Source: a virus | IMG/VR virus record: IMGVR_UViG_3300027782_006229 | Location: 20,842-84,841 of that record | DNA: 64,000 bases | Strand: one strand, 5' to 3' | Part shown: positions 2,911 to 42,002 of the stretch, piece by piece | Numbering within the stretch: position 1 is the first letter of the stretch | Layout of the letters: every line of letters begins with the position of its first letter | Program-made: the position numbers and the translations under genes | The notes under the pieces: model-generated | The model's database searches: none | Seen by the model: the letters and a program-made list of their open reading frames with translations, nothing else | Told to the model about the DNA's origin: nothing

Positions 2911-4698
2911 TTATTTATTGAATTTGAACTCCGAACTATTAACTAGTGCCCAGATGATGTCATCATCCTGAACACCAACAAACTTACTTTTTTCATCAAT
3001 TGTTGGTTTTCTAACCAATATAGACTTAAAAATAACATCAATTGTATCAGCTGGTGATTTGCCTGTAAGTGTTTTTGCAAGATTTGTGTCTTTATTGATT
3101 GCAACTTCAGCTAATTGACCATTCATAAAAGAAATAACTTGTGTAACTGAACCTTCCTTTGAAGATGTATCAATTAATTCTCTATCACTACGACCAAGTT
3201 GTTCAAGAATCGTATTAACTGGATTGTTATCATTAACTTCAGACGCTCTCACTAGAGGGTAGTTACGATATTTTGGAGCTGTTTCATATTTTGAACGAAT
3301 CACCTTTTGATATTCTTCATTTTTAGCTTTTAATTTATCAATTGCCAAATCTTCGATACTATATCTCATTATTTTAACATATTCATCTTGGAAAGTTAAC
3401 TTAAATGTTTCAGGCTTAGCAATAGCGATAGACATAACTGAATCCCACAATTGCTCTGCTGTTAAACGTTGTTTGACTGGTCCAATGAACACAAATTTAT
3501 CTGTATTAGTATACATGCCGTCATAGAGTTCTCTTTGAAACAATGTTGTATTGTAAAGAACATACAGGAATTGCTTAGTATCATAGTTAACGTCTACCAT
3601 AATCTTAGCAAGAGTGTTCATAAGCTCACCATTAAGCTCTTTTTCATCGTGAATATTATCATAGTTATCCATTATATGTTTACCAAACACCCATTTCCAG
3701 TAACGATTAGCAATGTTTTTAGTGAATGTTGGATGATTTGGGTTAACTAACCAGCTAATAACATCCTTTCTCATATCAACCTTATTGTTAATTTCAGTCT
3801 TACCAGAAAGGACTGCAGGTATAACAACATCGCCTGGTTTTGCATCTTTATAATTGTAATCATGAGGTAGTTTCAATACACGCTTTTCATCTACTTCAAT
3901 ATTAGATCTCATAGCATTAACAAAGTTGTTAATAGTATTGTTTAACCCACGGTTCTTTATAGGATCAGCTTTAATTATAGCATCAATTTCTTCTCTCAAA
4001 GCTTTCTGACGAGCTGCTACCGCTGGATCTTTATCTTTACCACGACCTCTAAGTTCTATCTGGGTAAACATAGCAGCCATCTTATAAAACTGCATTTGGG
4101 TGAAGTCTTGGAAAGGATCATCATGGCATTGTGCACAACCAATATCGGTTCCCATGAATACTTTACCTGTACCAATAAGGTTATCTAATGGCATTCCTAA
4201 ATCACGATAGAAGTATCCTGTTGCTGGGTTATCATAATATGAACCTGTTGATGTTAACAGATCTGTAACAAACTTTGAATAAGATTTGTTAGCTGTGATT
4301 GAGTCTTTAACATAATCAATGTAAGGACCACCAGAAAAATTGTTAGTGGTGTTAATTCTATCACGCAATCTTAATGATTCAGCCCAGAAGTTAAACATAT
4401 GTGATGTATAACCTGGATGGTTCATAAGAAACTGTATTAAACCTCGTCTCTTATTAGGGTCTGTTGCTTTATTAAACAAGTCATACTCTTCATAGGTTGG
4501 ATTTCTACCAATTATTGTAAGATACGCTCGTCGTAAAAATTTATCATCATCAATTTTACCAAGTGGTATAACATTAGCTGCTACGTATTGTTTTTGTAAC
4601 ACAGAATCAATATTACTACTGTATGTGTTAAGTTGATCTAAAGTTGCACCAAATGATAGAGCGCAAACACTTACTAATATAGCTATAAGTTTTTTCAT
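2911..4698 (-). CDS. DUF1549/DUF1553 (PSCyt2/PSD1) protein
   Basis: Sec-type leader; FLRRAYLTIIGRNPT, GCAQCHDDPF (CxxCH), RLTAEQLWDS and WALVNSSEF motifs. Confidence 0.9.
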   Translation of the reverse strand: MKKLIAILVSVCALSFGATLDQLNTYSSNIDSVLQKQYVAANVIPLGKIDDDKFLRRAYLTIIGRNPTYEEYDLFNKATDPNKRRGLIQFLMNHPGYTSHMFNFWAESLRLRDRINTTNNFSGGPYIDYVKDSITANKSYSKFVTDLLTSTGSYYDNPATGYFYRDLGMPLDNLIGTGKVFMGTDIGCAQCHDDPFQDFTQMQFYKMAAMFTQIELRGRGKDKDPAVAARQKALREEIDAIIKADPIKNRGLNNTINNFVNAMRSNIEVDEKRVLKLPHDYNYKDAKPGDVVIPAVLSGKTEINNKVDMRKDVISWLVNPNHPTFTKNIANRYWKWVFGKHIMDNYDNIHDEKELNGELMNTLAKIMVDVNYDTKQFLYVLYNTTLFQRELYDGMYTNTDKFVFIGPVKQRLTAEQLWDSVMSIAIAKPETFKLTFQDEYVKIMRYSIEDLAIDKLKAKNEEYQKVIRSKYETAPKYRNYPLVRASEVNDNNPVNTILEQLGRSDRELIDTSSKEGSVTQVISFMNGQLAEVAINKDTNLAKTLTGKSPADTIDVIFKSILVRKPTIDEKSKFVGVQDDDIIWALVNSSEFKFNK

Positions 4699-8575: not shown

Positions 8576-8895
8576 GGCTTGAAATGTTTGGTTAGACCTA
8601 AAAATTCTTTAGTGAATGAGAAAATATGGCCTGAGCCTTTATTAAACACCTTTTTGTTAAAATCATTGATGTTAACATCAGAAATTTCACTCTTATACAC
8701 AACAACCTCTTTGTTTTTAGTGTTAACAACTAGTAAAACATCGCAGTTAAACTTCTTTTGGCATAATTTAATAAATTCAGGTGTTACAACACCAGTATCA
8801 AAAAAACTTACAAACATTTTACCGTTGAGTTTTAGTTGAAAAAACTGTGTTGTTTTGAATTTTTCTTTAAGGTAATCTATAAAGCTTTGGTTCAC
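8569..8895 (-). CDS. hypothetical protein, DHHA1-domain-like
   Basis: C-terminal KGSGH resembles the DHHA1 GGGH motif. Confidence 0.4.
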   Translation of the reverse strand: MNQSFIDYLKEKFKTTQFFQLKLNGKMFVSFFDTGVVTPEFIKLCQKKFNCDVLLVVNTKNKEVVVYKSEISDVNINDFNKKVFNKGSGHIFSFTKEFLGLTKHFKPC

Positions 8896-32613: not shown

Positions 32614-32709
32614 TGGTACTCCAGGCCGGGATCGAACCGACAACCGCGGCCTAATCTGGGCCATACGAAAGGTATAAGCTTTCCGCTCTGCCAATTGAGC
32701 TACTGGAGT
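32614..32709 (-). tRNA. tRNA-Ile(UAU) with long variable arm
   Basis: ACTCCAG acceptor, GAAAG-CTTATAC-CTTTC anticodon arm, about 25-nt variable region, TTCGATC T-loop, ACCA. Confidence 0.85.
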
Positions 32710-32747
32710 GTTATTAAATTTAATGTCTTTATTTTACAGATCAACTA

Positions 32748-33341
32748 TTAGTTTTTTAAATCTTCAAAATCGTTGTAAATATGCTGGTATGTTTGTCCAG
32801 CTTCCTCAGTTTGAGGTGTAAAATATTCTGATGTTATAGCTGTATTTTTAGCTTTTTCTCCAGCAGCATTAATCTGATCATTAAAATCGTCAATTTGATC
32901 ACGATTAGGATTTCTTAAACTAGATAGTTCATGATCTAGTTGATCGAGCAATGATGTATCACCATTACGTCTTGCTTCCATTTTCTGTCTCATTAATGAA
33001 TGACGTTTTTTATTAAACTCAGGTTCCGCATGCAACTCATTCATTTTAGCTCTTAACGGTTGTGTTACTGGCCACATGATGTTTTGATGGAAAAACAAAC
33101 TTAATGTTTGTAGTAGCTTTGATAATTTTTTATCACGATGTTCACCAGATGGTCCTATTCCATGTTTATTCATCGTATATAAAGATAGATAAGACACTTT
33201 ATCAGCGAATTCTTTTAAAGTCATCGGTTTACCAGTTCTAGTGTCGGTGGTAATCGATTGCAAAAACTCTTCAATTGTATTGAAGTTTGGTTCTGCAAGT
33301 TCGTAACTCTCGTTAAAATAAAATTGACTAAATGTTATCAT
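32748..33341 (-). CDS. late hypothetical protein (internal-protein-like N-terminus)
   Basis: TAAATA; MITFSQFYFNE. Confidence 0.65.
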   Translation of the reverse strand: MITFSQFYFNESYELAEPNFNTIEEFLQSITTDTRTGKPMTLKEFADKVSYLSLYTMNKHGIGPSGEHRDKKLSKLLQTLSLFFHQNIMWPVTQPLRAKMNELHAEPEFNKKRHSLMRQKMEARRNGDTSLLDQLDHELSSLRNPNRDQIDDFNDQINAAGEKAKNTAITSEYFTPQTEEAGQTYQHIYNDFEDLKN

Positions 33342-33398
33342 CTATGTTATTTATTTAATGCAGGGGTTTTACGTGATTAACCTGCAACCACTTTTAAC

Positions 33399-34415
33399 TT
33401 ACTTATTGTAAATATCAAGTAAGTTAAACTTGAGATTTGGTCCATTAGTAAAGATTTCACCAGCAGATTTATTCAAGCGCATTGCAGTATCATTACCAAT
33501 AACACTACGTTCATGACTTGCAAGATTGGTAGCAAGGTTGAATACATCATATAGATTTTCATCTGTATAAATAAACTTCTGACGTTTTGCGCTAAAGTTA
33601 TCAACTGAATGACCAGCGTTATGGAAGTCAGCAACAATACTTGAATATTGAGGCATAAAACGTTCACGAGATTCTTTATTAAGTTGACTTGCAACACAAT
33701 TGACTTCATATAGAGAGGCTCGAGCATTTCGTAGAGCATCAACGCGAGGTTTAACACTGCTAATTATACTATCGTTATTAGCGAATTTCAAAAATTGCTT
33801 ACCGATATTCTTACTAACAGCTGCCACACGATATGCAAGTTGCTCACGAGTAGTCATACCATTTGTGCACATAAGACGCAAAAAGTAATTTGCAAATTGC
33901 TGACTTGCGTGACCAATAATAGAGGTTGCTCCGAACTTCCAAAGATCACCGAGGCCGCAATTAATATCATCACCACCAACAGTATGCACTTCTACATTAC
34001 ACGTTTCGCTATTCCATTCGATACGTTGCAGGTTGTGATTAATATTTTCGTCAATAGTATTGAAGAGCTCATCAAGACGTTCATCAAAATTGAGTTGAGT
34101 ATTTTCTTTTACGTTAGAATTAACTAGCGTATTAACGTTATTATTGTGATCAACAATACAGGTAAACTGCTTATTTTTATCAATAGTATTCAATGCGGTA
34201 CGAATTGAATCCCAATTTTCTGCTGGCTTTGCAAAAATCTCTTTTGAAAGATTTGTACGAATACCGATTGCATCCATAATTCGCCTGGTATTGGTCGTTG
34301 AGTACTTATCAGCGATAATAAGTCGATTATGCTCACATGTAATATGCTGAGTATTAAAAGGTACGATTGTGTGTTGCTTTACTTTGTCTTTTACTTGTTC
34401 TAATGTATTTGTCAT
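33399..34415 (-). CDS. DUF932-like protein
   Basis: RLMCTNGM and LYDVFNLAT motifs; early promoter upstream. Confidence 0.55.
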   Translation of the reverse strand: MTNTLEQVKDKVKQHTIVPFNTQHITCEHNRLIIADKYSTTNTRRIMDAIGIRTNLSKEIFAKPAENWDSIRTALNTIDKNKQFTCIVDHNNNVNTLVNSNVKENTQLNFDERLDELFNTIDENINHNLQRIEWNSETCNVEVHTVGGDDINCGLGDLWKFGATSIIGHASQQFANYFLRLMCTNGMTTREQLAYRVAAVSKNIGKQFLKFANNDSIISSVKPRVDALRNARASLYEVNCVASQLNKESRERFMPQYSSIVADFHNAGHSVDNFSAKRQKFIYTDENLYDVFNLATNLASHERSVIGNDTAMRLNKSAGEIFTNGPNLKFNLLDIYNK

Positions 34416-34449
34416 ATATTTTGTAGTAATTGTTTTGTTACTTACTACT

Positions 34450-34479
34450 ATTATAATGTATTTCCTTTAGAGTTCCACT
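34450..34479 (-). promoter_or_regulatory. early promoter with AGGAAA spacer motif
   Basis: GTGGAACTCTAAAGGAAATACATTATAAT. Confidence 0.6.
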
Positions 34480-34521
34480 ATTGTTTTAAATTTTGATCTA
34501 ACACCAAACATAAATAATGAT

Positions 34522-34608
34522 ATGAATGTCCTTGAAATATTAGAAATGTTTTTAGGACTTTTTTGCATTACTGCAATCTTCATCGCTATAGCAAAAGTTT
34601 TGCCTTAG
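34522..34608 (+). CDS. 28-aa hydrophobic peptide
   Basis: MNVLEILEMFLGLFCITAIFIAIAKVLP; TAAATA at 34511. Confidence 0.5.
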   Translation: MNVLEILEMFLGLFCITAIFIAIAKVLP

Positions 34609-34625
34609 CTTGAACTGCAGTCCTT

Positions 34626-34706
34626 ATGGACTATTTATTTATAATTTTAGGAATTTTTGGCATTGCGTTGGGCTTGTACCTCATTGCAACAGCCAACCAT
34701 CAATGA
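34626..34706 (+). CDS. 26-aa hydrophobic peptide
   Basis: MDYLFIILGIFGIALGLYLIATANHQ. Confidence 0.5.
   Translation: MDYLFIILGIFGIALGLYLIATANHQ
34677..34695 (+). repeat. 19-bp direct repeat, copy 1
   Basis: TACCTCATTGCAACAGCCA. Confidence 0.8.
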
Positions 34707-35482
34707 TGTTGTTGCACCTGTTCATACAGTGCAATTAAATTTTTCATGTCAGTGGTGTGATGATCAACTGCAAGTTTGTATCCGTGCTGTTCAGAACCAC
34801 CCTGCGGCGCACCTCCAAGATAATCTGCTGGAGAGTATTCAATGCTGTTAGCATATGCTTTTTCTTTTTTCTTTTCACCCATTTCACTCTTGACAACCTT
34901 GATTGCATCGTTGATAACTGAATCAATAGTGCTTATTATTTCTCGATCACCGTGAAATAACCCTTTATCTATCATTTTTTCAGCAGGGTACAATACTCTT
35001 GGTTCACCCATTGCGTTTTTAAAATAAATGTCACCGGCTGAATGATATTTAGGATCTTTTAAAAACTCCATGGCTTTGTCTAGAGGGTGCTGCACAAATT
35101 GTTCGACATCTTCTGGTGTAAAATTTTTATTACTTGGAAATTTATCTAATAGTGTTTCTTGTACATAATCTGCAAATGTATCCCCATCTTTTGCAACATA
35201 ATTCACAATTGCTTTTGCTAATTCATCATTTATTTTGATTGAACTCAATTGTTGATTTGCTTTTTGTGCAAATATTTTTGCGTTATCACTAGTGGTAATA
35301 GTCGAAAAAATATTATACCAATCGCCTTTTTTAAATCTACCAATGTTGATTGTAGCACCTTTTAATCCGCTGCCAACAGATGAAAGTCTTTTTGCTGCAG
35401 GTAAAGCTTGTATTGGTTTAGCAAAAGAAGCTATCAATGTACCAATCATTTTTTTGAGAATATTTCTGCGTGAATCCATCAT
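34700..35482 (-). CDS. late hypothetical protein with twin-arginine-like leader
   Basis: MMDSRRNILKKMIGTLIASFAKPIQA; TATAAATA upstream. Confidence 0.7.
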   Translation of the reverse strand: MMDSRRNILKKMIGTLIASFAKPIQALPAAKRLSSVGSGLKGATINIGRFKKGDWYNIFSTITTSDNAKIFAQKANQQLSSIKINDELAKAIVNYVAKDGDTFADYVQETLLDKFPSNKNFTPEDVEQFVQHPLDKAMEFLKDPKYHSAGDIYFKNAMGEPRVLYPAEKMIDKGLFHGDREIISTIDSVINDAIKVVKSEMGEKKKEKAYANSIEYSPADYLGGAPQGGSEQHGYKLAVDHHTTDMKNLIALYEQVQQHH

Positions 35483-35525
35483 GCATATATTTATATAAAA
35501 ATTTGTTAGATTTTAAATTTATAAA

Positions 35526-35544
35526 TACCTCATTGCAACTGCCA
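35526..35544 (+). repeat. 19-bp direct repeat, copy 2
   Basis: TACCTCATTGCAACTGCCA (one mismatch to copy 1). Confidence 0.8.
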
Positions 35545-35549
35545 GATGA

Positions 35550-35792
35550 TCATATATCGAAGAACCCTTCAGCTTTAAGATATTTTTCAACTTTCATAAA
35601 GAAATTAATGTCTTGCAATGAGGGGTAATCCACATACTCTTTAGAAATATCACTGCCCTCAAAATCTAAGGATGCAATGTATTGTAATGTTAGATTTAAA
35701 TTTGCTCTACATTTTCGTCCATGAAAATCAAATACTATGTTTCTTCGTAAACACTTGTTGAGCATTTGTTGTAATGTTTCTTCTTCTTTCAT
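35550..35792 (-). CDS. hypothetical protein
   Basis: Likely start MKEEETL immediately after tRNA-Leu. Confidence 0.55.
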   Translation of the reverse strand: MKEEETLQQMLNKCLRRNIVFDFHGRKCRANLNLTLQYIASLDFEGSDISKEYVDYPSLQDINFFMKVEKYLKAEGFFDI

Positions 35793-35801
35793 GTAGTAAA
35801 T

Positions 35802-35878
35802 TGGTACCCTGAGTCGGATTCGAACCGACAACACACGGATCTTAAATCCGATGCATCTACCAATTGTGCTACCAGGGC
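35802..35878 (-). tRNA. tRNA-Leu(UAA), short variable loop
   Basis: Cloverleaf, anticodon loop TTTAAGA, ACCA. Confidence 0.85.
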
Positions 35879-35886
35879 ATTGAAAG

Positions 35887-35961
35887 TGGTTCTCTTGGAT
35901 GGTAATGCTCCATCTTAGATCGCTTCACAGGCGATGACATTACTTTTATGATACGAAGAGA
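35887..35961 (-). tRNA. tRNA-His(GUG), non-canonical
   Basis: ATCGC-CTGTGAA-GCGAT; T-loop AGCATTA; irregular acceptor; CCA. Confidence 0.7.
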
Positions 35962-35970
35962 TTTTGAAAG

Positions 35971-36045
35971 TGGTACCTGGTGCGGGAATCGAACCCACAT
36001 AAAGGCTTTAGAAGAGCCTTGTCCTATCCGTTGAACGAACCAGGC
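35971..36045 (-). tRNA. tRNA-Arg(UCU)
   Basis: AGGCT-CTTCTAA-AGCCT, CCA. Confidence 0.92.
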
Positions 36046-36053
36046 ATTTAAAT

Positions 36054-36128
36054 TGGAGCGCAATCAGGGAATCAAACCCTGCTAAGCGATTTTGCAGACC
36101 GCCACCTACATCAGCTGGCTCATTGCGC
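36054..36128 (-). tRNA. tRNA-Cys(GCA)
   Basis: Anticodon loop CTGCAAA, U73, CCA. Confidence 0.85.
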
Positions 36129-36142
36129 ATTTGAAAATTGTT

Positions 36143-36285
36143 GACACTCTATTGAGTAGCTAATTCAACGAGTGCCTCAGAAACCATTCAATGAGCTTGT
36201 GCAAGCGCACCCAGTCAGACGTGAATCTGAACAGCCAAAGTGCCAGGAACAGCAACGAAACTGACAGTTAGTTGAATATTTCTGA
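36143..36285 (-). ncRNA. unassigned structured RNA candidate B
   Basis: 14-bp helix TCAGAAATATTCAA/TTGAATG-G-TTTCTGA plus internal and 3' hairpins; no ORF. Confidence 0.6.
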
Positions 36286-36290
36286 ATATC

Positions 36291-36484
36291 GATAGCCGGT
36301 GAGGTATCCAAGAGTATCTGGTCTATCTACAGATCCCTCTCTGCCCATTCTCCGTTTGTAATATACACTTCATAATGCTTCCGTCCAGTATTATCATACT
36401 TTGCATTGCAATGCATTTCAGGTCTTACCCGGCCCCTCACATTATTTTCTCATTACACGCAACCTGCGTCTTTCCTTACTATCA
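36291..36484 (-). ncRNA. unassigned multi-hairpin RNA candidate A
   Basis: Closing GATAGT/GCTATC, GTGAGG/CCTCAC and at least five hairpins; no convincing ORF. Confidence 0.65.
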
Positions 36485-36488
36485 AAAT

Positions 36489-36563
36489 TGGTGGAGCGTA
36501 AGGGATTCGAACCCTTTCTTCAACCGTGCAAGGATCATGTGCTACCATTATCACTAACGCCCC
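36489..36563 (-). tRNA. tRNA-Ala(UGC)
   Basis: G3:U70, anticodon loop CTTGCAC, CCA. Confidence 0.92.
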
Positions 36564-36569
36564 ATAAAA

Positions 36570-36644
36570 TGGTACCCGAAGTAGGATTCAAACCTACAAC
36601 AATCCGCGTGTAAGGCGGGCGCTCTATCGTTGAGCTATTCGGGC
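36570..36644 (-). tRNA. tRNA-Val(UAC)
   Basis: Anticodon loop CTTACAC, CCA. Confidence 0.9.
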
Positions 36645-36651
36645 AATTTAC

Positions 36652-36849
36652 CTACTCTGAAACTTTTGTCTCTTTACGAGCATTTTTCTCTGCTGTAATT
36701 TCATTACGACGAGCTTTAGCTAGTACGATAATCTCTTGTAGACGCTTTCGTGCGTTTGTACTTGCAGATGATTTACCGTTGATGAATTTTTCATCATCAA
36801 TTGCAAAAGCTTCAGTTAGTTCTTTAAGTTGGTCATATGTTTTTGTCAT
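36652..36849 (-). CDS. histone H1-like (Hc1 family) small protein
   Basis: KF..G.SSASTNARKRLQEI..LAKARR.EI pattern; own early promoter at 36855-36882. Confidence 0.7.
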   Translation of the reverse strand: MTKTYDQLKELTEAFAIDDEKFINGKSSASTNARKRLQEIIVLAKARRNEITAEKNARKETKVSE

Positions 36850-36891
36850 ACTTTATTATAATATCTTTCCTATCTGAATCAACTATTAAAT

Positions 36892-36966
36892 TGGCTCCCC
36901 AGGTACGGTTCGAACGTACGACATGACGGTTAACAGCCGTCCGCTCTACCACTGAGCTACTGGGGA
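36892..36966 (-). tRNA. tRNA-Asn(GUU)
   Basis: Anticodon loop CTGTTAA, G73, CCA. Confidence 0.93.
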
Positions 36967-37304
36967 TTTTTATCTGCAACAATATATATTCTGTCTAATT
37001 GTTGTTCAACTAAAATTTTGTTTAAATCTTCTCTGTATATTTTACACAATGCAAAAACTCTATCGAGCATTCTATTTGCATTGGTAATCATCTTATGTGA
37101 CTCAAAGCTGTAGATGCAATCATGAACTCGATGCATTCTAATACACCCAAATTCAGTTGCCTCGTTATCGAGTTTTTCAAAAAGTTCTTCAATTGATTTA
37201 ATATGACCCCAATCTAGAGAATAAGGAATTCCTGTAAACTTACACTGATGCTCAACTATCTCTTTGATTTTACTTTTATTGATAACGAAGATTGGTTGTT
37301 TCAT
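36957..37304 (-). CDS. hypothetical protein within tRNA array
   Basis: 115-aa ORF between tRNAs; stop lies inside tRNA-Asn. Confidence 0.55.
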   Translation of the reverse strand: MKQPIFVINKSKIKEIVEHQCKFTGIPYSLDWGHIKSIEELFEKLDNEATEFGCIRMHRVHDCIYSFESHKMITNANRMLDRVFALCKIYREDLNKILVEQQLDRIYIVADKNPQ

Positions 37305-37309
37305 AAAAT

Positions 37310-37383
37310 TGGATGCAGGTCGGGAATCGCACCGCGCTCTATGGGTTATGAGCCCAGAATGGTCACTAGACCACTTACCTGCA
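37310..37383 (-). tRNA. tRNA-Met(CAU), initiator-like and non-canonical
   Basis: GGG-CTCATAA-CCC anticodon stem; T-loop TGCGATT; CCA. Confidence 0.75.
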
Positions 37384-37392
37384 ATTTGAAAT

Positions 37393-37470
37393 TGGCAGAG
37401 CTGATGGGTGCTGCCCCCACTCTATATCTCGCTCGACAGGCGAGTGTCAATGCTGTTTGACTTCAGCTCT
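37393..37470 (-). tRNA. tRNA-Asp(GUC), non-canonical elbow
   Basis: Anticodon loop CTGTCGA, G73; T-loop GGCAGCA. Confidence 0.8.
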
Positions 37471-37479
37471 ATTTGAAAT

Positions 37480-37556
37480 TGGTAACGGCGACGGGGATCG
37501 AACCCGCGGTCTTCACGTTGAAAGCGTGACGATTTAACCAACTAATCTACACCGTC
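37480..37556 (-). tRNA. tRNA-Glu(UUC)
   Basis: Anticodon loop CTTTCAA, CCA. Confidence 0.92.
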
Positions 37557-37602
37557 ATTTAAATTAATTACTCTTTTATTATAACTTATTTCCTTTTGAA
37601 AT

Positions 37603-37679
37603 TGGTCATCCCAGAGGTAGTTGCAACCTCACCATACCGGATTAAAAGTCCGGTGCCGGTCTACTGTGGCTTTAGGATG
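37603..37679 (-). tRNA. tRNA-Lys(UUU), non-canonical elbow
   Basis: Anticodon loop CTTTTAA; T-loop TGCAACT. Confidence 0.8.
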
Positions 37680-37688
37680 TTTTGAAAT

Positions 37689-37762
37689 TGGTGCCTCTAG
37701 CTGGAATCGAACCAGCGTTTATCGCGTATGAAACGATCATTCTACCATTGAATTATAGAGGC
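37689..37762 (-). tRNA. tRNA-Met or tRNA-Ile2 (CAU)
   Basis: Anticodon loop TTCATAC, CCA. Confidence 0.85.
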
Positions 37763-37771
37763 TTTTGAAAT

Positions 37772-37846
37772 TGGCAGCTCCCCCAAGACTCGAACTTGGA
37801 CTAAAAGATTCAAAATCTTCTGTGCTAACCATTACACTAAGGAGCC
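37772..37846 (-). tRNA. tRNA-Gln(UUG)
   Basis: Anticodon loop TTTTGAA, CCA. Confidence 0.85.
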
Positions 37847-37855
37847 ATTTGAAAT

Positions 37856-37932
37856 TGGTACCCGTAGAGGGATTCGAACCCCCAACATTATGATCCTAAA
37901 TCATATGCATCTACCAGTTGTGCTATACGGGC
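37856..37932 (-). tRNA. tRNA-Leu(UAG), short variable loop
   Basis: TATGA-TTTAGGA-TCATA, CCA. Confidence 0.88.
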
Positions 37933-37941
37933 ATTTGAAAT

Positions 37942-38018
37942 TGGTACTCTCGGAGGTAGTTGCAACCTCATCATATCCGGTTAAGAGCCGGGTGCCGATC
38001 TACTGTAGCATCGAGAGT
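37942..38018 (-). tRNA. tRNA-Lys(CUU), non-canonical elbow
   Basis: Anticodon loop CTCTTAA; T-loop TGCAACT. Confidence 0.8.
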
Positions 38019-38026
38019 ATTTGAAA

Positions 38027-38101
38027 TGGTGGCGCATCAGGCTTTTCACCCTTCCTCTGGCACCAGTGTGGCCAGCGTGCTTTACCTTACACTATTGCGC
38101 G
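38027..38101 (-). tRNA. tRNA-like RNA of undetermined identity (9-nt anticodon loop)
   Basis: D arm GTGT/GCAC, CTGGC-CACACTGGT-GCCAG, aberrant T arm, ACCA end. Confidence 0.6.
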
Positions 38102-38105
38102 GAAA

Positions 38106-38180
38106 TGGTACCTCATAGAAGATTCGAACTCCTACTTTTTCGTTCGTAGCGAAACGTGCTTTCCATTACACTAACGAGGC
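38106..38180 (-). tRNA. tRNA-Arg(ACG)
   Basis: Anticodon loop CTACGAA, CCA. Confidence 0.9.
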
Positions 38181-38188
38181 ATTTAAAA

Positions 38189-38264
38189 TGGCACCCGGTG
38201 TGGGAATCGAACCCACCCACTCAGATTTGGAGTCTAAGTCGCCAGCCTTGGAACATTACCGGAT
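38189..38264 (-). tRNA. tRNA-Trp(CCA)
   Basis: Anticodon loop CTCCAAA, G73, CCA. Confidence 0.88.
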
Positions 38265-38270
38265 ATAAAT

Positions 38271-38344
38271 TGGTCCTTCTGGCAGGAATTGAACCTGCGT
38301 CGCTGCCTTATCAAGACAGAGCTAAACCACTCAGCTACAGAAGG
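38271..38344 (-). tRNA. tRNA-Ile(GAU)
   Basis: Anticodon loop TTGATAA, CCA. Confidence 0.85.
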
Positions 38345-38352
38345 TTTGAAAT

Positions 38353-38427
38353 TTGCACCCCTAGTTGGATTTGCACCAACGTCTATGGTTTATCGGTCCA
38401 TTGCTAAAGCTGCTCAGCTACAGGGGC
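38353..38427 (-). tRNA. tRNA-Ile(GAU)-like, non-canonical, no encoded CCA
   Basis: Anticodon loop CCGATAA; T-loop TGCAAAT; ends in GCAA. Confidence 0.6.
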
Positions 38428-38435
38428 ATTTGAAA

Positions 38436-38515
38436 TTGTAGGATGGTTGCGAGGTTTTACCCGAAACGCCTCACCATCAGTCTTTCGGCCACACACTAGC
38501 ATTGCTGCTCTACAA
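38436..38515 (-). ncRNA. unassigned junction RNA candidate C
   Basis: TTGTAG/CTACAA closing helix, AGCA-GCAA-TGCT hairpin, GAAA-capped stem, GATGG..GAGG/CCTC..CCATC. Confidence 0.55.
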
Positions 38516-38518
38516 AAA

Positions 38519-38612
38519 TGGAGGAGAGCTGCGGTCCTGCCCCGCACACCTCTTTTTAGGAAGTGCGTGATGTTTAGCAAACATCCCTAGCGCCTTGTCT
38601 AGTTAACTCTCC
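38519..38612 (-). tRNA. tRNA-Ser(GCU), non-canonical T loop
   Basis: Anticodon loop TTGCTAA, long variable arm, T-loop GGCAGGA. Confidence 0.8.
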
Positions 38613-38703
38613 ATATGGGCCGGTCTTTGGTAAGTTTTCGCTATGCGAAGGTTTCTTTCTAAGTGCCTTTTTATCGGGTATGCTCCGGGCCGATCTTATA
38701 AAC

Positions 38704-38780
38704 TGGTCAGGATAGCGAGATTTGAACTCGCGCTTCTAGATCCCAAATCTAGTGTGCTACCAGGCTACAACTATATCCTG
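38704..38780 (-). tRNA. tRNA-Pro(UGG)
   Basis: Anticodon loop TTTGGGA, C1:G72, CCA. Confidence 0.9.
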
Positions 38781-38791
38781 TTGAAAATTAA

Positions 38792-38883
38792 TTAGGCTGA
38801 TGTGCTTATTCCGCTATCTATGCATCAATAATCAATATCTGGCTCCCACACACATCATAAATGGCCATTGACCTGCCGCCTAA
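38792..38883 (-). ncRNA. unassigned structured RNA candidate E
   Basis: TTAGGC/GCCTAA and TGATGTG/CACATCA helices. Confidence 0.45.
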
Positions 38884-38885
38884 AT

Positions 38886-38962
38886 TGGTCAGGATAGTTG
38901 GATTCGAACCAACGACCACTCACTTCCAAGGCGAGTGCGCTACCAGACTGCGCTATATCCTG
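38886..38962 (-). tRNA. tRNA-Pro(UGG), second copy
   Basis: Anticodon loop CTTGGAA, CCA. Confidence 0.92.
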
Positions 38963-38969
38963 TTGAAAT

Positions 38970-39044
38970 TGGTGCGGTGTGAGGGAATCGAACCCTCTCC
39001 TTCTGATTGGAAGTCAGGTGTGCAGCCATTAACATTTACACCGC
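38970..39044 (-). tRNA. tRNA-Gly(UCC)
   Basis: Anticodon loop CTTCCAA, CCA. Confidence 0.9.
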
Positions 39045-39053
39045 TTTTGAAAT

Positions 39054-39137
39054 TGGAGCTGGATGTGAGATTCGAACTCACGAAGCTATCGCAATGGTTT
39101 ACAAAACCATCCCCTTTGGCCACTTGGGTAATCCAGC
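39054..39137 (-). tRNA. tRNA-Thr(UGU) with extended variable arm
   Basis: ATGGT-TTTGTAA-ACCAT; 12-nt variable region; Tyr-like D arm. Confidence 0.82.
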
Positions 39138-39145
39138 ATAAAAAT

Positions 39146-39219
39146 TGGAGCGTTATATGGGATTCGAGCCCATTCAATAACCTTGGCAAGGTCATATGCA
39201 GCCATCACATCCATAACGC
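39146..39219 (-). tRNA. tRNA-Gly(GCC)
   Basis: Anticodon loop TTGCCAA, U73, CCA. Confidence 0.88.
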
Positions 39220-39220
39220 A

Positions 39221-39312
39221 TGGAGGAAGAAGTGAGATTCGAACTCACGGAGGTTTTTAGGCCTCAACGCATTTCAAGTGCGCCGCCTTAAACCAGGCTC
39301 AGCCATTCTTCC
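39221..39312 (-). tRNA. tRNA-Ser(UGA)
   Basis: Anticodon loop CTTGAAA, long variable arm, CCA. Confidence 0.9.
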
Positions 39313-39318
39313 ATAAAT

Positions 39319-39385
39319 TGGACGGTGTTTTCTTTTACTTCAGATCACCGAAAGTCTGAACTTCAGAGGTCGGGTAGAAGCCGAC
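39319..39385 (-). ncRNA. pseudoknotted RNA candidate F ending in CCA
   Basis: GTCGG/CCGAC hairpin; TTCAGA/TCTGAA stem whose loop CGGTG pairs with 3' CACCG-TCCA. Confidence 0.55.
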
Positions 39386-39390
39386 ATAAA

Positions 39391-39478
39391 TGGTGGGGTA
39401 GGTTGGATTCGAACCAACTCAGCCGCAGAGGCTACAGATTTACAGTCTGTCCTGACTCTCCAACTTCAGCGCTACCCC
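39391..39478 (-). tRNA. tRNA-Tyr(GUA)
   Basis: Anticodon loop CTGTAAA, variable arm, CCA. Confidence 0.92.
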
Positions 39479-39483
39479 ATAAA

Positions 39484-39559
39484 TGGTCCCTGTGTAAGGA
39501 ATCGAACCTTACCGTCTCACTCTTCAGGCGAGCGCAATCTCCAGATTTGCTTCACAGGG
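39484..39559 (-). tRNA. tRNA-Phe(GAA)
   Basis: Anticodon loop CTGAAGA, CCA. Confidence 0.88.
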
Positions 39560-39576
39560 TTAAAATAGATAGTTTT

Positions 39577-39713
39577 TGGTGGCTACACCAGGCAACTTCA
39601 CGATATCGTTACAAACCCATATGCTATTTTTCTTTATTATTAATCACTGTAGACTTTCATCTCCGTCGCATTCTGCGAGCTCTTGGGCTATTTTGGTTAT
39701 CCCTCGTCGTGAA
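39577..39713 (-). ncRNA. unassigned structured RNA candidate G at head of array
   Basis: TTCACGA/TCGTGAA closing helix, TCGCA-GAA-TGCGA hairpin, 3' TGGTG-TAGC-CACCA. Confidence 0.45.
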
Positions 39714-39732
39714 CCTTATTTATTATTCTAAT

Positions 39733-39760
39733 ATTATAATCTATTTCCTTTATCTCAACT
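39733..39760 (-). promoter_or_regulatory. early promoter driving tRNA array
   Basis: AGTTGAGATAAAGGAAATAGATTATAAT. Confidence 0.65.
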
Positions 39761-40003
39761 ATCTTTTTTAATTATTATCTTAAAATCGATTGAGGCATCG
39801 GAATAGACCAATCATATCCCTCGCAACCTTTACTAAAGGCGCGCTGTTTGAGATATGTTAGATTTTGGTTCATCTGAAATTATTTATATCAGACGGCCTA
39901 ATTATCCACATCAAAAATGCACTTTTTAGTAAATTTGTGAAGTTGTATTAAATTAATTGTATTACTACTTTCATTCTTTACACCTTTATTATAACGACTT
40001 TCC

Positions 40004-40546
40004 TTATGATATTTTCTGATACCAACAAGGTTGTTTTCTCTTTGTCCAAGTTGCAAAATCTTTATCGTGTATAATATATTGCTTATATTGATCAATAACA
40101 GATAGCTTATCAAAACCTTTAGTTTGACGGCATTTACTATCCTTACTAATTGCAACCGTAAATGGTGTTAAACCACGTTGCTCAACAATAGTATGATTTC
40201 GATTTTGATCACACCATTTTAAAAATATTGAACTAAAATGTTCTGGGCTACCAACCCATCTAAAATTACGTTCATCAACCATCGCAAGAGCATGGTCAAG
40301 TAACCACTCAAAATTTGCTTGAGATTCAATCGTCCAAAGAGTACATTGATGCTTTGCATAACCTTTACCTCTACGACGTACTGACCCAGCTTTAGTTCTA
40401 GGACATGTCTCATGAGACAACGAGTCCTGCGAAAATGCGTTTTGAAGCATAATGCAGGACTCAATAATCATTTTAGATCTTGCATGTTGATCGCAAAGAT
40501 TGATTGCAGATACAACAGGATCTTTATCAGTTACAAAAATATTCAT
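40004..40546 (-). CDS. pyrimidine-dimer DNA glycosylase (DenV-like)
   Basis: MNIFVTD.DP..SA..LCDQH..KMI.ES..ML, H.CT.W and WTKR..P.W motifs. Confidence 0.75.
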   Translation of the reverse strand: MNIFVTDKDPVVSAINLCDQHARSKMIIESCIMLQNAFSQDSLSHETCPRTKAGSVRRRGKGYAKHQCTLWTIESQANFEWLLDHALAMVDERNFRWVGSPEHFSSIFLKWCDQNRNHTIVEQRGLTPFTVAISKDSKCRQTKGFDKLSVIDQYKQYIIHDKDFATWTKRKQPCWYQKIS

Positions 40547-40567
40547 AACTGAATTATATTTTATTTC

Positions 40568-41179
40568 CTAAACCAAAGATCTACTACCTTGAGCAAATTC
40601 AATAAATTTATAAAATTCATTTCTACTATTATCACCCGTCTCATGGAATGAACCAGACATACGAGCTGTACGCATAGTTGAATTTTGTTTAATACCTCTC
40701 AAAGAACAACAAGTATGATTTGCTTCAACCATAATTGCAACACCTTTATTATTAATACATAAATCACTAATATATTTGTGAATACTCATCGTTAAATTTT
40801 CTTGTACAGAAGGTCTGCGTGAAAAATAATCAACAATACGATTTAGTTTAGATAAACCAATTACTTTACCATCTGGATCTGGTAGATAAGCTACGTGAGC
40901 ATATCCAAAGAAAGGTAAGTTATGATGTGCACACATACTCACAACAGGTATATTAGTTTGACATACCATACCATCATATTGACCATCATTAGTAAATGCA
41001 GTAATTTTAGGTTCATCCATAAAGCAACCTGCTGCTAGATCGTTAACCCATGCTTTAGTAACTCGACGAGGTGTATCTTCCATATGCGGATGATTTTGCC
41101 AATCGAAGCCAAGTGCACTTAGAAATTGACCGTAAGCTTGCTCTGCTTGTTTAATATCATATTTTTGACTCATATTCAC
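40568..41179 (-). CDS. folE: GTP cyclohydrolase I
   Basis: DTPRRV, SMCAHHNLPF, GLSKLNR, QE and HTCCSLRG motifs. Confidence 0.95.
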   Translation of the reverse strand: MNMSQKYDIKQAEQAYGQFLSALGFDWQNHPHMEDTPRRVTKAWVNDLAAGCFMDEPKITAFTNDGQYDGMVCQTNIPVVSMCAHHNLPFFGYAHVAYLPDPDGKVIGLSKLNRIVDYFSRRPSVQENLTMSIHKYISDLCINNKGVAIMVEANHTCCSLRGIKQNSTMRTARMSGSFHETGDNSRNEFYKFIEFAQGSRSLV

Positions 41180-41327: not shown

Positions 41328-42002
41328 ATGAGTAGCAGTATATATTCTTCAACAAAATTAATTAGTCTTGGTTCTTGTGCATTCCGTCAGTGGAGAGCAA
41401 CACATAGTCATTGTTCAAAAATTCATGGTTATGAATTAAAAGCAAAGTTTAATTTCGCAGGTCCATTTTTAGATGGTCGTAATTGGATTATTGACTTTGG
41501 TGAACTTGATGAGATTAAAAATACATTAAATGGTATCTTTGATCATACTCTTTGTGTAGCAGCAGATGATCCTCATCTAGAAGATTTTAAAGCCCTTAAT
41601 GAAAAAGGTATTGTTGATCTTCGTATTTTCGAAAGAGGTGTTGGTGCTGAAAGAGTTGCTGAAATTTGCTTCGAAGTTGCAACTAATTATTTAAAATCAA
41701 AATATGGTGAACTACGTTGGGTTGAAAAAGTTGAAGTATTTGAACATGATAGAAACTCAGCAATTTATTCTAATCCTCGTTATGTAGATAATTCAATTTT
41801 TACACCAACTACAGAAGATGCTGAAGCTATTGTAAAAACATATCTTGAAAATGAAGCTAAAAAAGCACAGCAACATGTAGAACAACAGGTAGCTGAAGTA
41901 GAAAAAGAACAGGTAGCTACAGAAAGTAATGCAGCTCCAGTAGGTAAGCGAGCAACTAGTGGTAATTACTCAGGATTATTTGCTGGAACGAGGTGGGGAT
42001 GA
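41328..42002 (+). CDS. queD: 6-carboxy-tetrahydropterin synthase
   Basis: HC..IHGY, WIIDFG, FDH and GAE motifs. Confidence 0.88.
   Translation: MSSSIYSSTKLISLGSCAFRQWRATHSHCSKIHGYELKAKFNFAGPFLDGRNWIIDFGELDEIKNTLNGIFDHTLCVAADDPHLEDFKALNEKGIVDLRIFERGVGAERVAEICFEVATNYLKSKYGELRWVEKVEVFEHDRNSAIYSNPRYVDNSIFTPTTEDAEAIVKTYLENEAKKAQQHVEQQVAEVEKEQVATESNAAPVGKRATSGNYSGLFAGTRWG

What the first reader, a model, noticed from the sequence alone, without database searches (positions are those of the whole stretch)
39319..39385. Pseudoknot RNA with a tRNA-style CCA end occupying a tRNA slot
Minus strand: hairpin GUCGG-CUUCUAC-CCGAC, then stem UUCAGA/UCUGAA whose loop (CUUUCGGUGA) pairs via CGGUG with CACCG after an A-rich linker (GUAAAAGAAAA), ending in UCCA. 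This is an H-type pseudoknot immediately before NCCA, as in plant-virus tRNA-like structures, and it is spaced like the neighbouring tRNAs. It could be an aminoacylatable mimic, a decoy for anticodon nucleases, or a ligand-binding fold.
Basis: partly seen in the sequence, partly recalled or inferred. Interest (0 to 1): 0.7.

Follow-up and report, generated by a model that had tools for sequence, protein, structure and literature searches.

The report
Anticodon-arm plus pseudoknot RNA among phage tRNAs
Between two tRNA genes of an uncultured lake phage lies a small conserved non-tRNA gene that joins an exact copy of an arginine-tRNA anticodon arm to a compact knotted fold, probably a tRNA-part look-alike cut out together with the tRNAs, whose job is still unknown.

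Summary
It fills a tRNA-sized slot, with 5- and 6-nt AU spacers, in a 23-tRNA operon of an uncultured freshwater phage.

- **Pseudoknot core:** the two helices, loop 1 and most of the A-rich linker are identical in 5 of 5 distinct copies, while the flanks are mosaic. There is therefore no covariation in this type. Similar A-rich-linker pseudoknots fill other tRNA slots in three relatives. One of them shows one compensatory change in each helix.
- **CCA end:** not conserved. It reads UCCA in 3 of 5 copies and UACA in 2 of 5.
- **New result:** the 5' hairpin is 17/17 identical to the anticodon arm of tRNA(UCU) genes in 13 of 19 other viral contigs.
- **Transcription:** a lake metatranscriptome contig covers 39204-39385 and ends exactly at the element's first base.
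- **Negative searches:** no Rfam family and no bacterial homologue.

Best reading: a small chimeric RNA (Arg-UCU anticodon arm plus pseudoknot 3' domain), excised with the tRNAs and acting as a tRNA-part mimic rather than an amino-acid acceptor. The function is unproven. This scan has noted similar knotted or CCA-ended RNAs in other phage tRNA operons.

The parts
39391..39478 (-). upstream tRNA-Tyr (GUA), ends in CCA
   Evidence: ARAGORN; Rfam tRNA 46.7 bits
39386..39390 (-). 5' spacer TTTAT, the same as between tRNA-Phe and tRNA-Tyr
39369..39385 (-). hairpin 1: 5-bp stem and 7-nt loop CUUCUAC. It is 17/17 identical to the anticodon arm of tRNA(UCU) genes in other viral contigs
   Evidence: Present in 3 of 5 copies of the element (window, L003, L050)
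39361..39368 (-). linker CUCUGAAG. 39363-39367 (UCUGA) can pair with 39355-39359 (UCAGA) as a competing 5-bp triloop hairpin
   Evidence: MFE; -3.3 kcal/mol. A competitor strand is present in 4 of 5 copies (read)
39355..39360 (-). pseudoknot stem 1, 5' strand UUCAGA
   Evidence: invariant in 5 of 5; 7 bp in 4 of 5 copies
39351..39354 (-). loop 1 CUUU
   Evidence: invariant
39346..39350 (-). pseudoknot stem 2, 5' strand CGGUG (inside the loop of stem 1)
39345..39345 (-). single junction A between the two stems
   Evidence: invariant
39339..39344 (-). pseudoknot stem 1, 3' strand UCUGAA
39328..39338 (-). A-rich loop 3. The first nucleotides after the G vary (TA, C, AG); the last eight, AAAGAAAA, are invariant
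39323..39327 (-). pseudoknot stem 2, 3' strand CACCG
39319..39322 (-). tail UCCA (UACA in 2 of 5 copies)
39313..39318 (-). 3' spacer ATTTAT, the AU-rich junction shared with the tRNAs
39221..39312 (-). downstream tRNA-Ser (UGA). It lies on the same metatranscriptome contig as the element

Best explanation
The element is a real, selected small-RNA gene of the phage's tRNA operon. It is a chimera of two modules:
1. A copy of a tRNA-Arg(UCU) anticodon stem-loop.
2. A compact 3' domain that most likely folds as an H-type pseudoknot (6-7 bp plus 5 bp, stacked to about 12 bp, with an A-rich third loop). It ends in the same N-C/A-CA plus AUUU junction as the neighbouring tRNAs.

Inferred mechanism:
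- It is transcribed within the polycistronic tRNA precursor.
- It is released by the host enzymes that release the tRNAs, through cuts in the AU-rich spacers and possibly RNase P.
- It persists because the knotted 3' domain is a stable, tRNA-end-like handle.
- In the cell it presents tRNA parts (an Arg-UCU anticodon arm and an acceptor-arm-like helix) without being a tRNA. It would then act as a competitor or decoy for a factor that recognises those parts, such as an anticodon-loop nuclease, a modification enzyme or RNase P. It would not act as an amino-acid acceptor.

Shown: the sequence anatomy, conservation, mosaic context, identity of hairpin 1 with tRNA anticodon arms, and presence in RNA libraries.

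Inferred: the pseudoknot fold, excision as a discrete RNA, and the decoy role.
For: (1) The core is invariant in 5 of 5 distinct copies, whereas the 5' module, the start of loop 3, one tail base and the spacers vary.

(2) The neighbours are much more diverged. The adjacent protein is 85% identical and tRNA-Phe aligns poorly between the window and G001.

(3) The slot is a cassette. G003 is 98% identical downstream of the slot but carries another RNA in it. In G001 the element sits between Phe and Tyr instead of between Tyr and Ser. L009/L010 lack it.

(4) Analogous A-rich-linker pseudoknots occupy tRNA slots in relatives. There are 11 on the tRNA strand of four clusters (35.8 kb) against 2 on the opposite strand, and 3.7 +/- 1.8 in 40 shuffles, none of which reached 11. 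Type B has one both-sides compensatory change in each helix. Type C in G002 also ends in CCA plus ATTTCAAAT.

(5) Hairpin 1 is 17/17 identical to the anticodon arm of tRNA(UCU) genes:
- ARAGORN calls tRNA-Arg(tct) at the site in 4 of the 7 loci I scanned.
- L082 has the same flanks as L066.
- Eight loci carry it in a D-armless tRNA-like gene. One of these was scanned and scores 33.3 bits against Rfam tRNA.

(6) A lake metatranscriptome contig (182 nt, depth 3.4, 0 differences) spans 39204-39385 and ends exactly at base 1 of the element. The ORF region 39980-40600 has depth 0 in that run.

(7) H-type pseudoknots with a 3' RCCA tail are cleaved in loop 1 by bacterial RNase P in vitro (PMC12710915, abstract and introduction read).

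(8) It is not coding. The 15-codon ATG frame of the window has no start and an in-frame stop in G001 (sequence). The opposite-strand ORFs have no Pfam match.
Against: - There is no covariation in this pseudoknot (0 of 12 pairs vary on both sides). The fold therefore rests on invariance and on analogy.
- With only five copies spread by cassette exchange, invariance may partly reflect recent common origin.
- A nested three-hairpin fold of -17.3 kcal/mol competes in the window's version. Nested-only folding of the core is unexceptional (z -0.4 to -1.2).
- CCA is replaced by ACA in 2 of 5 copies.
- Hairpin 1 is absent in 2 of 5 copies.
- Contigs cannot show RNA ends, strand or level. The depth is low, and DNA carry-over cannot be excluded.
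- No target nuclease or enzyme is identified, and the host is unknown. The closest cultured phages share only about 31-35% identity in the neighbouring protein.
Confidence: 0.42

Rival explanations
1. Cis-acting processing or stability element only. The knot plus the CCA-like tail is a structural 'handle' that guides RNase E, RNase P or 3' exonucleases on the polycistronic precursor, or insulates neighbouring tRNAs. The released RNA has no job of its own.
For: - It shares the junction signals of the tRNAs.
- E. coli tRNA operons are cut by RNase E 1-3 nt after CCA and by RNase P at 5' ends (PMC2190699, abstract in the listing).
- Pseudoknot+RCCA substrates are cleaved by RNase P (PMC12710915).
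- Pseudoknots recur at several tRNA junctions in relatives.
Against: - A purely structural spacer should drift by compensatory change. Here loops and linker are invariant too.
- Relatives manage without it at the same junction (L009).
- It does not explain a letter-perfect anticodon arm.
Confidence: 0.2
2. Recombination relic. A fragment of a tRNA-Arg(UCU) gene was fused to spacer sequence by the frequent slot-shuffling of this operon and is carried along without function.
For: - Slots are visibly shuffled.
- Hairpin 1 is only the anticodon arm of a tRNA, with no other tRNA part.
- There is no covariation.
Against: - The 39-nt core is unchanged in five different contexts, while adjacent positions changed.
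- It was kept when its 5' partner was exchanged (L052, G001).
- It is present in RNA libraries.
- Pseudoknots of the same build are enriched on the transcribed strand.
Confidence: 0.13
3. Aminoacylatable tRNA-like structure, as in plant-virus TLS. The knot builds an acceptor arm, CCA is charged, and hairpin 1 supplies the anticodon identity.
For: - In the window's copy, the anticodon arm, a roughly 11-12-bp stacked knot and UCCA stand in the tRNA order.
- TLS acceptor arms are H-type pseudoknots ending in CCA (PMC12710915 introduction).
Against: - UACA replaces UCCA in 2 of 5 copies, one of them with the anticodon arm (L050).
- There is no elbow mimic and no tRNA-model score.
- The anticodon arm is dispensable in 2 of 5 copies.
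- The analogous type-B, -D and -E knots have no CCA.
Confidence: 0.05
4. RNA antitoxin mimic. A pseudoknot that neutralises a host type III toxin-antitoxin or a similar abortive-infection nuclease.
For: - Its size and pseudoknot build resemble those antitoxins (recalled, not tested).
- Cassette-like diversity fits an arms race.
Against: - It is a single copy with no tandem repeats.
- There is no toxin gene nearby.
- No Rfam match of any kind.
- Two pattern scans of 185,579 species' genomes gave no bacterial look-alike.
Confidence: 0.05
5. Ligand-binding pseudoknot (preQ0/preQ1, SAM or another ligand) acting as a switch. The upstream UCUGA strand would serve as the alternative partner of stem 1.
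For: - The phage carries folE and queD-like genes 1.2-2 kb upstream.
- The topology with an A-rich linker recalls small pseudoknot aptamers (recalled).
- A competitor strand for stem 1 exists in 4 of 5 copies.
Against: - No match to any riboswitch family even at E <= 10 on a 101-nt search.
- There is no terminator or ribosome-binding site to control.
- It lies between tRNAs, downstream of the que genes rather than in their leader.
Confidence: 0.03

Closest known systems
Phage T4 stable RNAs RNAC (species 1) and RNAD (species 2) of the T4 tRNA cluster
   Same: - Small non-tRNA RNAs encoded on the tRNA strand inside a phage tRNA cluster.
- RNAD ends in an encoded ...ACCA followed by an AU-rich spacer.
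- Their roles are still unknown (PMC3014915 and PMC9697503, passages read).
   Different: - T4's RNAs are 119 and 139 nt, against 67 nt here.
- There is no sequence similarity (best 7-nt word).
- My scan found no A-rich-linker pseudoknot in them.
- They contain no complete anticodon-arm copy.
Plant-virus tRNA-like structures (TYMV-type TLS)
   Same: - An H-type pseudoknot directly before the 3' NCCA.
- An anticodon-arm analogue 5' of it.
- Such structures are RNase P substrates (PMC12710915 introduction).
   Different: - Those sit at the 3' end of an RNA virus genome, have an elbow mimic and are charged.
- This one is a gene inside a dsDNA phage tRNA operon.
- It has no elbow, and its CCA is not conserved.
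Model pseudoknot substrates of bacterial RNase P (biotin-aptamer pseudoknot with a 3' GCCAC tail; Kosek et al. 2025, PMC12710915)
   Same: - A minimal H-type pseudoknot followed by CCA.
- The predicted cut would fall in loop 1, whose last base here is U. A section heading of that paper says U is preferred at that position.
   Different: - Those are artificial substrates that are cleaved inefficiently.
- Here the base before CCA is U, not a purine, and CCA is ACA in 2 of 5 copies.
- Cleavage was not tested.
Phage tRNAs that counter tRNA-targeting defences (PARIS, retron effectors, anticodon nucleases)
   Same: Phage tRNA-operon products whose anticodon loops matter for escaping host nucleases (PMC10264068, PMC11464382, PMC11555353; only the abstract starts in the listing were seen).
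   Different: Those are complete, functional tRNAs. This RNA carries only the anticodon arm and could at most be a decoy. No such decoy is described in the papers listed by my searches.

Membership tests
tRNA (Rfam RF00005) | Cloverleaf with acceptor stem, D arm, anticodon arm and T arm | tested here: not met
   No ARAGORN call. No Rfam tRNA hit at gathering score or at E <= 10 on 39300-39400. Only the anticodon arm is present.
Viral tRNA-like structure (TYMV-type TLS) | 3'-terminal NCCA | tested here: inconclusive
   UCCA in the window, L003 and L052; UACA in L050 and G001. That it is an RNA 3' end is not shown.
Viral tRNA-like structure (TYMV-type TLS) | Acceptor arm built by an H-type pseudoknot next to the CCA | tested here: inconclusive
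   Both helices are possible and invariant in 5 of 5 copies, with no covariation. A competing nested fold exists.
Viral tRNA-like structure (TYMV-type TLS) | T-loop/D-loop elbow mimic | tested here: not met
   No tRNA-model signal. No T-loop motif in the sequence.
Viral tRNA-like structure (TYMV-type TLS) | Anticodon-arm analogue | tested here: met
   17/17 identity with tRNA(UCU) anticodon arms. Present in only 3 of 5 copies.
Viral tRNA-like structure (TYMV-type TLS) | Aminoacylation by a host synthetase | not testable with these tools
   Needs charging assays or periodate tRNA-seq.
Stable RNAs of phage tRNA clusters (T4 RNAC/RNAD kind) | Non-tRNA gene on the tRNA strand inside the cluster, with tRNA-like junctions | tested here: met
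   T4 layout.
Stable RNAs of phage tRNA clusters (T4 RNAC/RNAD kind) | Accumulates as a discrete processed RNA | tested here: inconclusive
   The metatranscriptome contig 39204-39385 ends at base 1 of the element, but contigs cannot show ends or levels.
Stable RNAs of phage tRNA clusters (T4 RNAC/RNAD kind) | Sequence or structure homology to T4 RNAC/RNAD | tested here: not met
   blastn-short found only 6-7-nt words. No comparable pseudoknot in T4's RNAs.
Pseudoknot riboswitches (preQ1-I/II/III, SAM-II/V and others in Rfam) | Match to the family model, and an expression platform | tested here: not met
   No such hit at E <= 10. No terminator or start site follows.
Type III antitoxin RNAs | Tandem repeats next to a toxin endoribonuclease gene, or phage copies of such repeats | tested here: not met
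   Single copy per genome. No tandem repeat. Neighbours are tRNAs, a DNA-binding protein family (phrog_624) and folE. No bacterial look-alike.
RNase P pseudoknot substrates | H-type pseudoknot with a 3' RCCA, and cleavage in loop 1 | tested here: inconclusive
   The topology fits. The tail is UCCA or UACA rather than RCCA. Cleavage is not testable here.

The most novel reading that the evidence does not exclude
Phages of this lineage build modular 'bait plus handle' RNAs inside their tRNA operons. A pseudoknot with a tRNA-like end hijacks the host's tRNA-processing machinery so that it is cut out and stabilised. It carries exchangeable baits, here a perfect tRNA-Arg(UCU) anticodon arm, that soak up host anticodon nucleases or other tRNA-directed defence or modification enzymes. 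The slot-by-slot cassette exchange would be the footprint of an arms race fought with RNA decoys.
Probability: 0.15. Interest if true: 0.85.

Novelty: new variant of a known kind. Interest (0 to 1): 0.6.

Why it matters
Small non-tRNA RNAs in phage tRNA clusters have been known since T4's RNAC and RNAD, and their roles are still unexplained. This element is small and sharply delimited, and it has two recognisable halves: an exact tRNA-Arg(UCU) anticodon arm and a minimal pseudoknot with a tRNA-like end. That makes the question testable.

- If it is a decoy, it would be an RNA-only counter-defence, complementary to the complete phage tRNAs now known to defeat tRNA-cleaving immunity.
- If RNase P cuts it, it would be a natural in vivo pseudoknot substrate. 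PMC12710915 calls that an open question.
- The recurrence of A-rich-linker pseudoknots at tRNA junctions in four related genomes suggests an undescribed family of phage RNA modules.

Tried and rejected
**Homologue searches**
- Near-identity and distant DNA searches of cultured phages gave no homologue of the element. Distant hits were to tRNAs only.
- Patterns that let stem 2 or stem 1 vary gave only chance hits or the same two contigs in viral contigs.
- The transition-tolerant pattern added two real copies and one chance hit from metagenome contigs.
- Two genome-contig scans gave nothing, and then one chance hit inside a GC-rich ATPase-like gene.
- Type C was found only once.
- blastn-short over 42 loci found the core only in close relatives.

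**RNA family and fold checks**
- Rfam gave no hit for the element, for the related spacers or for the leader.
- Nested folding of cores and analogues is not exceptional except for type C.
- The window has no copy of the relatives' spacer RNA.
- T4 RNAC/RNAD showed no similarity.
- I considered a short peptide gene and a DNA-level inverted-repeat protein site. Both were rejected. The frame is not conserved, and stem 2 and the type-B covariation are unexplained by a DNA site.

**RNA runs**
- X1, X3 and X12 do not cover the element. Holes in contig cover prove nothing.

**Not done**
- No pseudoknot-aware energy program was available. My stacking sums omit the knot penalty.
- Supplementary files of papers were not consulted.

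Full report
**What is there.** The window is part of an 84.8-kb IMG/VR virus record, about 40% complete. Its minus strand carries an operon of 23 tRNA genes at 32614-39559 (20 of them reach the Rfam tRNA threshold). Upstream lie a DNA-binding protein family (phrog_624), a GTP cyclohydrolase, a QueD-like gene and PhoH. No cultured phage is close: the neighbouring protein reaches only about 31-35% identity.

They lie between tRNA-Tyr and tRNA-Ser behind a TTTAT spacer and before an ATTTAT spacer. In one search, 22 of 23 tRNAs end in CCA and 13 of 23 are followed by ATTT, so the element carries the same junctions. It is not a tRNA. It matches no Rfam family even at E <= 10 and is not followed by a terminator. 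It does not encode a conserved peptide, because the window's 15-codon frame has no start and an in-frame stop in G001. The opposite-strand ORFs have no Pfam match. There are no tandem repeats, and there is one copy per genome.

**Is the pseudoknot more than chance?** On its own, only moderately.
- The nested MFE (-17.3 kcal/mol, z -1.63) uses another arrangement: hairpin 1, a UCUGA/UCAGA triloop hairpin, and CGGUG/CACCG as an ordinary long-range helix.
- Loose H-type patterns are common in this AT-rich DNA.
- Knots of this stacking strength with a linker of at least 70% A are rare: 2 observed against 0.2 expected per window.
- In the versions with a 7-bp stem 1, that hairpin is fully formed in the nascent chain before the 3' strand of stem 2 is made (P about 0.97-1.0 up to 34 nt). 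This favours the knot kinetically.
- In the window's version the sub-helices are worth -5.8 (hairpin 1), -3.3 (competitor), -3.8 (stem 1) and -4.7 (stem 2) kcal/mol.
- I had no pseudoknot-aware energy model.

**Homologues.** Pattern scans found four further distinct copies:
- L003 (same contig as L053), 94.7% identical to the window over 1.7 kb.
- L050.
- G001, a complete 184.5-kb genome with terminal repeats (L004/L008).
- L052.

In the alignment both helices, loop 1, the junction A, the last eight linker bases and the U after stem 2 are identical in all five. Stem 1 has a seventh C-G pair in four of them. Variation is confined to the 5' flank, the first linker bases (TA, C, AG), one tail base and the spacer. 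Hence 98.3% of cells pair, but no pair varies on both sides. The fold is compatible with the data, not proven by them.

The tail is UCCA in three copies and UACA in two (L050, G001), although every neighbouring tRNA in G001 keeps CCA.

No look-alike exists in one genome each of 185,579 prokaryote species by two patterns.

**Mosaic context.**
- The element sits Tyr-X-Ser in the window, L003 and L050, and Phe-X-Tyr in G001.
- In L052 it stands behind a different 43-nt 5' module.
- L009/L010, whose neighbouring protein is 86% identical, lack it.
- G003 is 98% identical to the window from the spacer after the element onward. In the slot it carries a roughly 170-nt RNA instead.
- Even tRNA-Tyr differs between the window and L003.

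The operon therefore evolves by exchange of whole slots, and the knot core travels as a unit.

**A family of similar knots.** At the position taken by the core in L052, four relatives have another H-type pseudoknot with an A-rich linker (type B). Among four sequences it shows one both-sides compensatory change in each helix (U-A to C-G in stem 1, A-U to G-C in stem 2). 97.2% of cells pair, and 29 of 500 shuffles do as well.

G002 (224.7 kb, complete) has two more:
- Type C lies between tRNA-Ile and tRNA-Lys. It is 47 nt (8 bp plus 5 bp), shares the run AGAAAACACC with the element, and ends in CCA plus ATTTCAAAT.
- Type D lies between tRNA-Gly and tRNA-Pro and has no CCA.
- Type E precedes the distal tRNA-Ile in G001 and G002.

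Over the four clusters there are 11 such knots on the tRNA strand, 2 on the other strand, and 3.7 +/- 1.8 in 40 shuffles, none reaching 11. Orthologues are counted more than once in that figure.

**The 5' hairpin is an anticodon arm.** Its loop differs by one base from that of the phage's own tRNA-Arg(UCU), whose stem is different. A scan for the 17-mer found 20 viral contigs, one of which is L003. Of the other 19:
- Five carry it as positions 27-43 of a canonical tRNA-Arg(tct). ARAGORN confirmed four of the seven loci I scanned. L082 shares L066's flanks and was not scanned.
- Eight carry it in a D-armless, long-variable-arm tRNA-like gene. L065, the only one scanned, scores 33.3 bits against Rfam tRNA with the 17-mer aligned to the anticodon arm.
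- Six are GC-richer contigs (0.46-0.69 G+C) whose printed flanks show no tRNA features. These were not examined further.

The window's element is thus a tRNA-Arg(UCU) anticodon arm fused to the knot. Nothing else of a tRNA is present.

**Transcription.** Of four lake metatranscriptomes laid, X2 holds a 182-nt contig (depth 3.4, no differences) covering 39204-39385. It runs from the first base of the element through tRNA-Ser into tRNA-Gly. The ORF region 39980-40600 has no cover in that run, while the leader 39624-39963 has depth 18.4. This shows that the element is in RNA libraries and is contiguous with tRNA-Ser. The end at 39385 is only a weak hint of a processed 5' end.

**Mechanism.** Two points from the literature bear on release.
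- In E. coli, tRNA operons are cut by RNase E 1-3 nt after CCA and by RNase P at 5' ends, followed by exonucleolytic trimming (PMC2190699, abstract start in the listing).
- H-type pseudoknots with a 3' RCCA, and the TYMV tRNA-like structure, are RNase P substrates in vitro. Whether pseudoknots are targeted in vivo is called open (PMC12710915, abstract and introduction).

I therefore read the knot plus tail as a tRNA-end-like handle that gets the RNA excised and keeps it stable, and the anticodon arm as the functional bait. This is inference. The alternatives are weighed in the Rival explanations section: a purely cis-acting processing element, a recombination relic, a charged TLS, an antitoxin mimic, and a ligand switch.

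**Comparison and novelty.** The closest known things are T4's RNAC and RNAD. They have the same placement, RNAD has an encoded CCA end, and their roles are unknown. They show no similarity to this element. Plant-virus TLS is the next closest, with the same knot-before-CCA logic, but here the elbow is missing and CCA is not conserved.

My literature searches listed no paper describing a pseudoknot or anticodon-arm decoy RNA in a phage tRNA operon. Only titles and abstract starts of those listings were seen, apart from the passages cited.

Earlier notes of this scan describe comparable knotted or CCA-ended RNAs in other phage tRNA operons, so the theme recurs on other DNA. I rate this a new variant of a known kind.

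Noticed in passing
window 39560-39970 (minus strand): The roughly 400-nt non-coding leader upstream of tRNA-Phe is about 80-90% conserved with G001. It is the best-covered part in three lake metatranscriptomes (contigs 39617-39970, 39624-39963 and 39539-39861, depth 6-18). It has no Rfam match. It may be an abundant structured RNA of its own.
   Followed up: partly
window about 39563-39625 (minus strand): Directly before tRNA-Phe is a roughly 50-nt element ending in GTAGCCACCA. In six relatives its central hairpin has different but always self-complementary stems (read by eye), and the end varies between CCACCA, CCCCA and CCGCCG. It looks like another CCA-ended non-tRNA candidate.
   Followed up: partly
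L008 7131-7216; L009 3101-3250; L054 4395-4545; L055 4750-4900; L052 2590-2640: The slot after tRNA-Tyr in relatives holds a modular RNA. A 43-nt module is closed by GTTGG/CCAAC with its own possible knot. The type-B pseudoknot follows, and in three of them a further 3' domain with a CCGTGA/TCACGG hairpin. No Rfam match.
   Followed up: partly
L061 (G002) 1081-1115 and 2983-3029; L060 (G001) 8756-8785: Further A-rich-linker pseudoknots at tRNA junctions (types D, C and E). Type C's stem 2 is GGAGG/CCUCC, a Shine-Dalgarno/anti-Shine-Dalgarno-like pair.
   Followed up: partly
L065 6491-6570 (and L069, L070, L072, L073, L075, L076, L080): An unrelated group of viral contigs carries a tRNA(UCU)-like gene without a D arm and with a 24-nt variable region. 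ARAGORN misses it; Rfam tRNA scores it at 33.3 bits.
   Followed up: partly
L008 6892-6966 and 7036-7123; L009 2928-3090: tRNA-Phe and tRNA-Tyr of G001 and L009 have unusual T arms (GCGTTAC in place of GGTTCGA). ARAGORN misses both in L008. This fits the earlier notes on rewired elbows in this genome.
   Followed up: no
window 35879-35970, 37557-37688, 37933-38105, 38428-38703, 38781-38885, 36129-36488: Other gaps of the operon hold tRNA-like genes missed by ARAGORN and further non-tRNA stretches, including a 360-nt one (printed).
   Followed up: no
window 40568-41179 and 41328-42002: GTP cyclohydrolase and a QueD-like gene lie next to the tRNA operon. They suggest a 7-deazaguanine pathway in this phage.
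   Followed up: no
L054 853-1296; L081 5912-6297: ARAGORN calls tmRNA-like genes in two viral contigs. These were not checked.
   Followed up: no
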